Assembly: GCF_016903815.1 (NCBI RefSeq)
Contig: NZ_CP069973.1
Direction: 5' to 3' (one strand)
DNA length: 64,000 nt
Source of the DNA: Escherichia coli
Lineage (GTDB): Bacteria; Pseudomonadota; Gammaproteobacteria; Enterobacterales; Enterobacteriaceae
The notes beneath the pieces are model-generated. The model saw nothing but the letters and a program-made list of their open reading frames with translations, made no database searches and was not told the DNA's origin. How positions within the stretch are numbered: position 1 is the stretch's first letter; every line of letters starts with the position of its first letter. Positions 58,486 through 58,797 of the stretch are shown here, piece after piece. The translations under genes were made by a program, and so were the position numbers.

Positions 58486-58797
58486 ATGTTCAGACCTTTT
58501 TTAGACTCTCTAATGCTCGGCAGTATGTTTTTTCCTTTTATTGCCATCGCAGGAAGCACCGCGCAAGGGGGCGTGATCCACTTTTATGGCCAAATTGTGG
58601 AACCGGCATGTGACGTCAGCACCCAGTCAACACCCGTAGAAATGAACTGCCCGCAGAATGGCTCTGTTCCGGGCAGAACCTATTCCAGCAAAGCGTTAAT
58701 GACCGGCAATGTCAAAAACGCGCAAATAGCCTCAGTAAAAGTGCAGTATCTTGATAAACAGAAAAAGCTGGCTGTAATGAACATCGAATATAACTAA
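58486..58797 (+). CDS. ymdA: YmdA, short fimbrial-subunit-like secreted protein
   Basis: 103 aa with signal peptide; mature N-terminus GGVIHFYGQIVEPAC resembles type 1 pilin [15 protein letters not shown]. Confidence 0.85.
   Translation: MFRPFLDSLMLGSMFFPFIAIAGSTAQGGVIHFYGQIVEPACDVSTQSTPVEMNCPQNGSVPGRTYSSKALMTGNVKNAQIASVKVQYLDKQKKLAVMNIEYN

What the first reader, a model, noticed from the sequence alone, without database searches (positions are those of the whole stretch)
58486..58797. ymdA looks like a truncated fimbrial (pilin-like) subunit beside the curli operons
YmdA (103 aa) has a cleavable signal peptide, and its mature N-terminus GGVIHFYGQIVEPACDVS closely matches the conserved start of chaperone-usher major pilins ([15 protein letters not shown] in FimA). 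It is only about half the length of a pilin and is not next to an usher or chaperone. It may be an orphan, degenerate pilin domain kept downstream of csgBAC, possibly a periplasmic protein that interacts with fibre assembly.
Basis: inference. Interest (0 to 1): 0.3.

Follow-up and report, generated by a model that had tools for sequence, protein, structure and literature searches.

The report
YmdA: small protein with pilin-like tip
ymdA is a known, intact E. coli gene for a small exported protein that shares only the first ~28 mature residues (the 'donor strand') with fimbrial subunits; it is a full-length member of a conserved ~100-residue family, not a broken pilin, and its function is still unknown.

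Summary
A 103-aa ORF lies at 58486..58797 (+) between csgC and ymdB. It has a signal-peptide-like start and a segment matching the FimA N-terminus. The match is beyond chance (hhalign E=1e-7; the ten best PDB hits are all chaperone-usher pilins). It covers only ~28 residues: the pilin donor strand plus the first Cys.

- An exhaustive profile search finds over 100 clusters of proteins that all have ~100 aa and match end to end. No ~180-aa pilin is among them.
- This is Pfam family PF27184 (YmdA).
- PF00419 is not matched.
- dN/dS is 0.11-0.19 in five genera.
- The donor-strand-like segment is the most conserved part.

The gene follows csgC in about 60 of 80 genomes. It also persists in genomes without curli genes, and it is essentially never beside a chaperone or usher.

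Published work shows an FlhDC-dependent promoter inside csgC, CsrA-activated translation, and biofilm loss on overexpression. RefSeq already names it 'type 1 fimbrial protein'.

My best mechanistic guess is untested (~0.3): an exported donor-strand decoy or cap that interferes with fimbrial assembly during motile growth. Verdict: already known gene, modest interest.

The parts
58486..58797 (+). ymdA coding sequence (103 codons plus stop)
   Evidence: ORF list. Present in 5411/5426 E. coli genomes and annotated ymdA / 'type 1 fimbrial protein'. Homologues carry PF27184.
58486..58551 (+). Residues 1-22, predicted Sec signal peptide (MFRPFLDSLMLGSMFFPFIAIA; A-I-A before G23)
   Evidence: Hydrophobicity scan: 96/98 family members have an h-region before the motif. 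Alignment to the FimA precursor puts mature FimA residue 1 at about YmdA residue 22. The cleavage site is inferred.
58552..58611 (+). Residues 23-42, GSTAQGGVIHFYGQIVEPAC: the segment homologous to the pilin N-terminal extension (donor strand) plus the first Cys
   Evidence: hhalign E=1.1e-7, 28 columns. hmmsearch against PDB hits FimA and PapA over profile positions 2-33 only. The engineered self-complemented FimA 2jty repeats this stretch at its C-terminus as the donor strand. It is the most conserved region of the family, 2.56 bits/site.
58609..58650 (+). Cys42...Cys55 loop; both Cys are invariant in the family, so a disulfide is presumed
   Evidence: C20 and C33 (mature numbering) are invariant in the 85-sequence alignment. 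The spacing of 13 residues differs from FimA, where the Cys are 40 residues apart (sequence).
58726..58791 (+). Residues 81-102, C-terminal beta-hairpin (IASVKVQY / LAVMNIEY) with an invariant penultimate Tyr
   Evidence: AlphaFold strands at mature 59-66 and 74-80, also seen in the shallow model. Y80 is invariant. Region information 2.04 bits/site.
58450..58474 (+). SD-sequestering hairpin CCUCAAGGAUGACUAAUCAUUGAGG in the ymdA leader; it contains a GGA that is probably CsrA site BS2
   Evidence: Centroid structure of the RNA fold. It matches the mechanism shown experimentally in PMC7492729. It is conserved in Escherichia, Citrobacter, Salmonella and Enterobacter.
58386..58485 (+). ymdA 5' leader (-100..-1) with GGA motifs at about -89, -70, -48, -30 and -13
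   Evidence: Sequence. CsrA binds two of these sites in vitro and activates translation (PMC7492729). Which GGA is BS1 or BS2 is inferred from the paper's description.
58311..58339 (+). Promoter-like -35/-10 (TGGACA-17-AACAAT) inside the 3' end of csgC; candidate ymdA promoter
   Evidence: Consensus scan only: 1 site found against 1.8 expected by chance. [quoted passage not shown]
58033..58365 (+). csgC, the upstream neighbour, which carries the ymdA promoter / FlhDC site
   Evidence: Translation MNALLLL.... csgC-ymdA adjacency in about 60 of 80 genomes.
58892..59425 (+). ymdB (macrodomain deacetylase), the downstream gene reported as co-transcribed (ymdABC)
   Evidence: ORF, Pfam Macro on the orthologue, ymdABC operon regulated by FlhDC. 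It is absent downstream of ymdA in several genera.

Best explanation
What it is (well supported, ~0.9). ymdA encodes an intact, Sec-exported protein of about 81 mature residues. It belongs to the conserved YmdA family (Pfam PF27184) of Enterobacterales. The protein has two parts. The first ~20 mature residues are homologous to the N-terminal extension, the 'donor strand', of FimA-type chaperone-usher major pilins, up to the first cysteine. The remaining ~60 residues form a small disulfide-containing beta-rich domain that ends in a conserved hairpin and is not recognisably a pilin fold. It is not a truncated pilin. According to published work, it is transcribed from an FlhDC-dependent promoter lying inside csgC, and its translation is switched on by CsrA opening an SD-sequestering hairpin. 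It is therefore made in the motile, anti-biofilm state, opposite to its curli neighbours.

How it most likely works (inferred, ~0.3). In the periplasm the free donor-strand-like segment inserts into the acceptor groove of chaperone-bound or usher-bound major pilins. Because YmdA has no pilin body or groove to accept the next subunit, it would cap or sequester them. That would make it a trans-acting terminator or decoy that lowers fimbriation and surface attachment while cells are motile.
For: Identity.
- ORF and context.
- End-to-end ~100-aa family in an exhaustive search, with no ~180-aa pilins among 139 hits.
- PF27184 on orthologues.
- Invariant G13, C20, C33, Y80.
- dN/dS 0.11-0.19 in five genera, similar to csgA/B/C.
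- Leader hairpin conserved across genera.

Local pilin homology. hhalign E=1.1e-7, probability 94%, 28 columns. Profile against PDB: FimA 3.8e-7, PapA 5e-3, always positions 2-33. In 2jty the same FimA stretch serves as the engineered donor strand.

Not a pilin body..

Support for the mechanism.
- The donor-strand-like segment is the most conserved part of the protein, including the invariant Gly of F-x-G-x-[IV]-V.
- Expression falls ~100-fold without FlhDC (PMC4183435).
- CsrA activates translation (PMC7492729).
- Overexpression lowers biofilm in E. coli (cited) and in Xenorhabdus.
- Overproducing the genuine terminator subunits FimI, PapH or MrpB shortens pili (PMC10673952).
- YehE has a similar layout and heads the yehDCBA chaperone-usher operon.
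Against: - No direct evidence of any YmdA-pilin contact. No complex prediction or binding test could be run.
- The AlphaFold model gives the N-terminal 20 residues pLDDT 71-80. That suggests they may pack on YmdA's own domain rather than hang free. The same ambiguity occurs with monomer models of real pilins.
- The conserved genomic partner is the curli operon, not a fimbrial operon. Copies outside it sit among housekeeping genes.
- Deletion phenotypes are weak: +45% biofilm that was not complemented in E. coli, none in Xenorhabdus, and no motility defect.
- The family has a conserved Glu after the motif (IVE) that FimA lacks.
- The YehE link is statistically weak (E=0.0057, probability 6.5%).
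Confidence: 0.35

Rival explanations
1. Curli accessory factor. YmdA acts in the periplasm on curli subunits or the Csg secretion machinery, for example as a second inhibitor beside CsgC, or as an antagonist that keeps curli off during motile growth.
For: ymdA directly follows csgC in about 60 of 80 genomes. This holds even where ymdB and/or clsC are missing or where the downstream genes differ (L003). No terminator-like site lies between csgC and ymdA. There are biofilm phenotypes, and the authors of PMC7492729 themselves suggest a curli link.
Against: The family persists in genomes that have lost csgBAC/EFG (Kluyvera, Superficieibacter). In Serratia, Erwinia, Providencia, Hafnia and Lonsdalea it sits among housekeeping genes. 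Regulation is opposite to curli (FlhDC, CsrA). No Csg family was matched by any of 85 members. The promoter lying inside csgC gives a non-functional reason for the linkage.
Confidence: 0.2
2. Small exported protein with an unrelated role. The pilin-like segment is simply an internal strand of its own fold, either shared by ancient descent or convergent, and does not engage pilins. The function could relate to the envelope, for example with ymdB-clsC (apramycin susceptibility).
For: The AlphaFold model gives the N-terminal segment moderate confidence within the monomer. The gene is reported as co-transcribed with ymdB-clsC. An apramycin phenotype is reported (cited). Many copies are stand-alone genes in housekeeping contexts.
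Against: The similarity to pilin donor strands is specific and statistically strong, and that segment is the most conserved part of the protein. ymdB and clsC are dispensable partners in many genomes.
Confidence: 0.3
3. Genuine minor pilin or terminator subunit. YmdA is bound by a PapD-like chaperone and incorporated by an usher encoded elsewhere. This is what the RefSeq name 'type 1 fimbrial protein' implies.
For: It has a donor-strand homologue and an invariant penultimate Tyr in a C-terminal alternating-hydrophobic strand, as in pilins. RefSeq uses the name.
Against: There is no pilin-domain match by profile or by fold. Only ~60 residues follow the donor strand, against ~140 in pilins. The Cys spacing is 13, not ~40. 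There is no Gly at position -14. FimC/FimD-like genes lie within 8 kb in only 1 of 80 loci.
Confidence: 0.1
4. Degenerating remnant of a pilin gene with no function of its own.
For: It has half the length of a pilin and is an orphan. Frameshifted or truncated alleles occur in some E. coli and Shigella strains (P0026, P0046, P0049, P0063; KE46). One strain has an IS1 at the locus (H1).
Against: dN/dS is 0.11-0.19 in five genera. Length and motifs are constant across over 100 clusters. The regulatory hairpin is conserved. Translation is dedicated and regulated, and the gene is strongly expressed.
Confidence: 0.03

Closest known systems
FimA-type major pilins of chaperone-usher fimbriae (Pfam PF00419; NCBIfam NF011741 FimA, NF011734 BcfA, NF011756 LpfA)
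   Same: Sec signal peptide. The N-terminal extension / donor-strand sequence G-G-x-[IV]-x-F-x-G-x-[IV]-V-x-x-x-C is shared up to the first Cys. The C-terminus has a penultimate Tyr.
   Different: There is no pilin Ig-like body by profile or by fold. The mature protein has ~81 residues rather than ~160. The second Cys lies 13 residues after the first, not ~40. The gene is not in a chaperone-usher operon.
Pilus assembly terminators FimI, PapH and MrpB
   Same: If the hypothesis holds, the outcome would be the same: a donor strand enters the last subunit's groove and nothing further can be added. Overproduction reduces the fibre-dependent phenotype (for the terminators; for YmdA and biofilm).
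   Different: Terminators are full pilin subunits that are delivered by the chaperone, encoded in the operon, and anchor the pilus. YmdA lacks the pilin body, is encoded elsewhere, and is controlled by FlhDC and CsrA.
YehE / DUF2574 (PF10836), the small protein at the head of the E. coli yehDCBA fimbrial operon
   Same: Same length class (93 aa) and same layout: signal peptide, pilin-Nte-like segment ending in Cys, second Cys 13 residues later, and a C-terminal ...Y-x.
   Different: Sequence relationship is not established (hhalign E=0.0057, probability 6.5%). YehE is linked to a chaperone-usher operon, whereas YmdA is linked to csgBAC.
CsgC, the periplasmic curli amyloid inhibitor encoded immediately upstream
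   Same: Small exported beta-rich protein of ~100 aa in the same locus. dN/dS is similar outside Escherichia; within Escherichia, CsgC's dN/dS is ~0.01 versus 0.11 for YmdA.
   Different: No sequence relationship was detected. Regulation is opposite. YmdA occurs without CsgC in many genomes.

Membership tests
Chaperone-usher pilin (PF00419 Fimbrial; FimA-like) | Sec signal peptide | tested here: met
   There is a hydrophobic h-region and A-x-A before G23. 96/98 family members show an h-region. No dedicated predictor was available.
Chaperone-usher pilin (PF00419 Fimbrial; FimA-like) | N-terminal extension (donor strand) with alternating hydrophobic residues and a conserved Gly | tested here: met
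   hhalign E=1.1e-7 over 28 columns. Profile against PDB hits FimA and PapA. The Gly is invariant in the family.
Chaperone-usher pilin (PF00419 Fimbrial; FimA-like) | Incomplete Ig-like pilin domain of ~130-150 residues matching the family profile or fold | tested here: not met
Chaperone-usher pilin (PF00419 Fimbrial; FimA-like) | Cysteine pair ~40 residues apart, as in FimA | tested here: not met
   The first Cys aligns. The second Cys is 13 residues later in YmdA and 40 later in FimA.
Chaperone-usher pilin (PF00419 Fimbrial; FimA-like) | C-terminal strand with penultimate Tyr and a Gly 14 residues from the end (chaperone-binding motif; from established knowledge) | tested here: inconclusive
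   The penultimate Tyr is invariant. Position -14 is Asp in YmdA and Gly in FimA (sequences).
Chaperone-usher pilin (PF00419 Fimbrial; FimA-like) | Encoded with a periplasmic chaperone and an outer-membrane usher | tested here: not met
   tblastn with FimC and FimD finds such genes within 8 kb in only 1 of 80 loci (L028, ~5 kb away). The neighbours of orphan copies are housekeeping genes.
YmdA family (Pfam PF27184) | Match to the family model | tested here: met
   The local Pfam copy lacks the model. Precomputed PF27184 hits are on record for homologues of 78-95% identity and for distant orthologues. My own family profile recovers the window protein's family end to end.
YmdA family (Pfam PF27184) | ~100 aa; signal peptide; [GS]G-x-I-x-F-x-G-x-IVE-x-x-C; second Cys 12-14 residues later; C-terminal Y-[LI]-[DN]-x-x-K-x-L-A-[VI]-x-x-[IV]-x-Y-x | tested here: met
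   Alignments.
Pilus terminator subunits (FimI / PapH / MrpB) | Full pilin fold delivered by the cognate chaperone, with a groove refractory to donor-strand exchange | tested here: not met
   No pilin fold. Description of terminators from PMC10673952.
Pilus terminator subunits (FimI / PapH / MrpB) | Donor strand completes the last major subunit and stops growth | not testable with these tools
   This needs complex prediction or an in vitro donor-strand-exchange assay.
Curli (Csg) system component | Homology to a Csg protein family | tested here: not met
   No Csg Pfam family appears among the hits of 85 members. There is no CsgC among the exhaustive-search hits.
Curli (Csg) system component | Strict co-occurrence and co-regulation with csg genes | tested here: inconclusive
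   Adjacent to csgC in about 60 of 80 genomes, but present without csgBAC in others. Regulation is by FlhDC and CsrA rather than the curli regulator (literature).
DUF2574 / YehE (PF10836) | Match to the family model or profile | tested here: inconclusive
   3/85 members match at E>=0.058. hhalign family against family gives E=0.0057, probability 6.5%, with both Cys in register.

The most novel reading that the evidence does not exclude
YmdA-family proteins, and perhaps YehE/DUF2574, are a class of free-standing 'donor-strand proteins'. They are exported mini-domains that carry a pilin N-terminal extension. They cap or sequester chaperone-usher pilus subunits in trans. This would give the flagellar master regulator FlhDC and CsrA a direct post-translational way to shut down fimbrial assembly during motile growth.
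Probability: 0.2. Interest if true: 0.7.

Novelty: already known. Interest (0 to 1): 0.3.

Why it matters
As stated, the finding repeats what the databases already say. ymdA is a named E. coli gene, RefSeq calls it 'type 1 fimbrial protein', and Pfam has a YmdA family.

The check adds a correction and a lead.
- Correction: the 'fimbrial protein' label over-reads a 28-residue similarity. The protein is not a pilin and not a truncation.
- Lead: the shared piece is exactly the donor strand that pilins use to polymerise, and it is the most conserved part of a family kept under purifying selection. The gene is switched on by the motility regulators FlhDC and CsrA.

This turns a y-gene of unknown function into a concrete experiment: does YmdA cap or sequester pilins? 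If it does, it would be a new route for the long-studied reciprocal control of motility and adhesion.

Tried and rejected
- Pfam on the single protein gave no hit, because the local copy lacks PF27184.
- The first AlphaFold run used a 7-sequence alignment and was uninformative (pLDDT 42). It was replaced by the 85-sequence run.
It was rerun with a 22-sequence subset. That scan used the pattern GVIHFxGxIV, so it is biased towards members that keep this motif.
- The FimA homologue search returned only close FimA variants. The pilin profile (A4) is therefore shallow: FimA variants plus FimI, FimF, FimG and one other pilin.
- The three large proteins hit by the YmdA profile are repetitive Ig-domain proteins (He_PIG, aBig_2). 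I treat this as summed weak repeat matches, at most a hint that the core is Ig-like.
- The L028 814-aa neighbour, which I suspected was an usher, is a mechanosensitive channel.
- YehE/DUF2574 as a sister family is suggestive but not significant.
- I did not map the FlhDC peak coordinate exactly onto the window, because the genome version used in the paper is uncertain. I rely on the paper's statement that the site lies inside csgC.

Full report
1. THE OBSERVATION

The window carries the E. coli curli region in the order csgGFED / csgBAC - ymdA - ymdB - clsC - opgC - opgG. The ORF at 58486..58797 (+) has 103 codons and an ATG start, with a GAGGA Shine-Dalgarno about 9 nt upstream. A 601-base stretch around it is found in 5411 of 5426 complete E. 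coli genomes. There it is annotated ymdA, with product names 'protein YmdA', 'YmdA family protein' or 'type 1 fimbrial protein'. K-12 annotates it as 'uncharacterized protein YmdA'.

For the single sequence the similarity is weak. NCBIfam FimA gives E=2e-4 and 21 bits against a cut-off of 140, over residues 25-51 only. PDB FimA gives E=5e-3 over residues 23-50 only.

With a family profile the similarity is clearly beyond chance. Against PDB sequences the ten best hits are all chaperone-usher pilins: FimA entries from 3.8e-7 to 1.3e-3, then PapA at 5e-3. hhalign against a pilin profile gives 94% probability and E=1.1e-7.

One detail needs correcting. The A-I-A motif before G23, and the alignment with mature FimA, put the likely mature N-terminus at GSTAQGGVIHF.

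2. WHAT IT IS NOT: A TRUNCATED PILIN

That is the result obtained.
- Every sequence or profile match to pilins ends by profile position 33, which is 28 aligned columns in hhalign.
- Pfam finds nothing in the protein. PF00419 (Fimbrial) is touched by 1 of 85 family members, at E=0.11.
- An AlphaFold model of the mature protein built on an 85-sequence alignment is reasonably confident (pLDDT 80.7, pTM 0.56).

The shortness is not a truncation either. An exhaustive HMMER search of 1.84 billion representative proteins with the Escherichia profile returned 139 significant hits. Apart from Escherichia fragments, these are about a hundred clusters of proteins of 96-119 aa that match the profile from about position 10 to 103. 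Not one is a ~180-aa pilin.

The members share one layout:
- a signal peptide;
- [GS]G-x-I-x-F-x-G-x-IVE-x-x-C;
- a second invariant Cys 12-14 residues later;
- a variable middle;
- a conserved C-terminal hairpin ending in an invariant penultimate Tyr.

The public database labels these proteins PF27184, 'YmdA'.

3. IT IS A MAINTAINED GENE

Pairwise Nei-Gojobori dN/dS for ymdA is 0.11-0.19 in Escherichia, Citrobacter, Enterobacter/Lelliottia, Buttiauxella and Salmonella. That is the same range as csgA, csgB and csgC in the same genomes, and higher than ymdB, opgC and csgF.

Conservation is uneven along the protein:
- the donor-strand-like first 20 mature residues carry 2.56 bits per site;
- the C-terminal hairpin carries 2.04;
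- the Cys loop carries 1.44;
- the middle carries 1.13.

Some E. coli and Shigella strains carry frameshifted or truncated alleles. One strain has an IS1 at the locus. The intact 103-aa form dominates the cluster sizes.

4. WHICH PIECE OF A PILIN IS SHARED

The aligned FimA stretch, [21 protein letters not shown], is the N-terminal extension. This is the strand that one subunit donates into the groove of the next. The self-complemented FimA construct 2jty carries this stretch a second time at its C-terminus, and the YmdA profile hits both copies. Donor-strand exchange and the P1-P5 groove pockets are described in PMC10673952.

YmdA therefore has the pilin's 'plug' followed by a small domain that does not resemble the pilin's 'socket'.

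5. SURROUNDINGS AND COMPARATIVE CONTEXT

A scan of one genome per species returned 80 loci, L004-L083. tblastn with the window's own proteins and with K-12 FimA, FimC, FimD and the other Fim proteins gave the following picture.
- In about 60 of the 80 loci, ymdA directly follows csgC.
- This includes genomes without ymdB (L018, L023, L026, L041), without clsC (Enterobacter), and without both (L003, L039, L042, L076).
- It also includes genomes with unrelated downstream genes (Buttiauxella, Cedecea, Dryocola).
- Kluyvera and Superficieibacter lack csgBAC but keep ymdA-ymdB-opgC.
- About 16 loci have none of these neighbours. In Serratia, Erwinia, Izhakiella, Winslowiella and Providencia the gene lies between a CobW-type GTPase, a PAP2 phosphatase, an NlpC/P60 lipoprotein, and a mannitol-dehydrogenase-family or EF-P-like gene.
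- FimC/FimD-like genes lie within 8 kb in only one locus, L028, about 5 kb away.

So the family is a stand-alone gene. It is never part of a fimbrial operon, and it is not dependent on curli genes.

6. REGULATION (LITERATURE, CHECKED AGAINST THE SEQUENCE)

FlhDC binds inside csgC, immediately upstream of a ymdA transcription start. ymdABC expression falls from 219 to 2-3 in flhD or flhC mutants. Deletion of ymdA does not affect motility (PMC4183435). A promoter-like element lies at 58311-58339, inside the end of csgC. This is a consensus match only.

CsrA binds two GGA sites in the leader and activates translation by opening a hairpin that sequesters the Shine-Dalgarno sequence (PMC7492729). 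That hairpin is present at 58450-58474. It is conserved in Escherichia, Citrobacter, Salmonella and Enterobacter. No terminator-like site separates csgC from ymdA.

The known phenotypes are as follows.
- In E. coli, overexpression lowers biofilm about 5-fold, and deletion raises it by 45% without complementation.
- In Xenorhabdus, overexpression lowers biofilm and host colonisation, and deletion has no effect.
- None of these papers analyses the pilin similarity. The Xenorhabdus preprint simply calls YmdA 'a type 1 fimbrial protein'.

7. MECHANISM

Shown or well supported:
- an exported small protein of a conserved family;
- local homology to the pilin donor strand;
- no pilin body;
- purifying selection that is strongest on that segment;
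- expression tied to FlhDC and CsrA.

Inferred: the donor-strand-like segment enters the acceptor groove of FimA-type pilins, on the chaperone or at the usher. Having no groove of its own, YmdA would cap or sequester them and so lower fimbriation in motile cells.

This would parallel the effect of overproducing the true terminator subunits FimI, PapH and MrpB. It would also fit the anti-biofilm overexpression phenotype.

I put this at about 0.3, for four reasons:
- nothing shows a YmdA-pilin contact;
- the AlphaFold monomer gives the segment moderate confidence (pLDDT 71-80), which may mean it packs on its own domain;
- the deletion phenotypes are weak;
- the conserved neighbour is curli, not fimbriae.

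The rivals are:
- a curli-directed role (0.2);
- an unrelated periplasmic role in which the segment is just part of the fold (0.3);
- a real minor pilin (0.1);
- a functionless relic (0.03).

8. COMPARISON WITH KNOWN FAMILIES, AND NOVELTY

YmdA fails membership of the chaperone-usher pilin family on four counts: the pilin domain, the Cys spacing, the length and the operon context. It meets only the signal-peptide and donor-strand features.

It is a member of PF27184. It resembles E. coli YehE (DUF2574) in layout, and yehE heads the yehDCBA fimbrial operon. The sequence relationship is not significant, however.

The gene, the family and the 'fimbrial' label are already in public databases, so the finding as written is already known. 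What the check adds is twofold. The label over-reads a 28-residue similarity. And the shared piece is specifically the donor strand, which suggests a testable function.

Interest: 0.3.

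Noticed in passing
L085:7516-7797 (-) (E. coli K-12 yehE, b2112): YehE (93 aa, DUF2574) has the same layout as YmdA: signal peptide, pilin-Nte-like ATLAINGRISPPTC, a second Cys 13 residues later, and a C-terminal ...RYD. It is the first gene of the yehE-yehDCBA chaperone-usher cluster. The relationship to YmdA is suggestive only (hhalign E=0.0057).
   Followed up: partly
window 58450-58474 and orthologous leaders in L004, L005, L007, L009, L021, L033, L024: The SD-sequestering hairpin of the ymdA leader (the CsrA switch) is conserved across Escherichia, Citrobacter, Salmonella and Enterobacter, with a few arm substitutions that keep pairing. 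A related CCCTCA...TTGAGG pair appears upstream in Buttiauxella, where the true start is probably an upstream GTG.
   Followed up: partly
L060:7342-7626 and 7938-8237 (Serratia silvae): Two tandem YmdA-family copies lie in one locus. Kluyvera (L075, L077) and Pseudocitrobacter (L080) carry second copies away from the curli region.
   Followed up: no
L034, L061, L071 (Kluyvera); L064, L066: These genomes have lost csgBAC and csgEFG but keep ymdA-ymdB-opgC. Kluyvera retains a CsgD-like gene about 2-3 kb upstream.
   Followed up: no
L067 (Pseudomonas sp.) and L082 (Burkholderiaceae bacterium): Isolated YmdA-family genes occur outside Enterobacterales, in unrelated contexts. This could be horizontal transfer or contamination of the assemblies. 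L020 is labelled Chryseobacterium but has a Citrobacter-like curli locus, which suggests a mislabelled or contaminated record.
   Followed up: no
window 58300-58900 compared with E. coli genomes: Strain EC21 (H1) has an IS1A element inserted in this stretch. Several frameshifted or truncated ymdA alleles circulate, including one in Shigella dysenteriae seen on 96 contigs (P0063) and 80-aa and 92-aa forms (P0046, P0049).
   Followed up: no
window 59358-59425: The longest clsC ORF (TTG at 59358) overlaps the end of ymdB by 68 nt. K-12 annotation starts clsC just after ymdB, which corresponds to codon 24 of that ORF. So the overlap is probably an artefact of taking the first possible start codon.
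   Followed up: partly
P0174, P0177, P0194: Three large repetitive Ig-domain proteins (He_PIG, aBig_2 repeats) match the middle of the YmdA profile in 5-8 stretches each at E~1e-5 to 1e-4. This is probably summed weak matches, and at most a hint that the YmdA core is Ig-like.
   Followed up: partly
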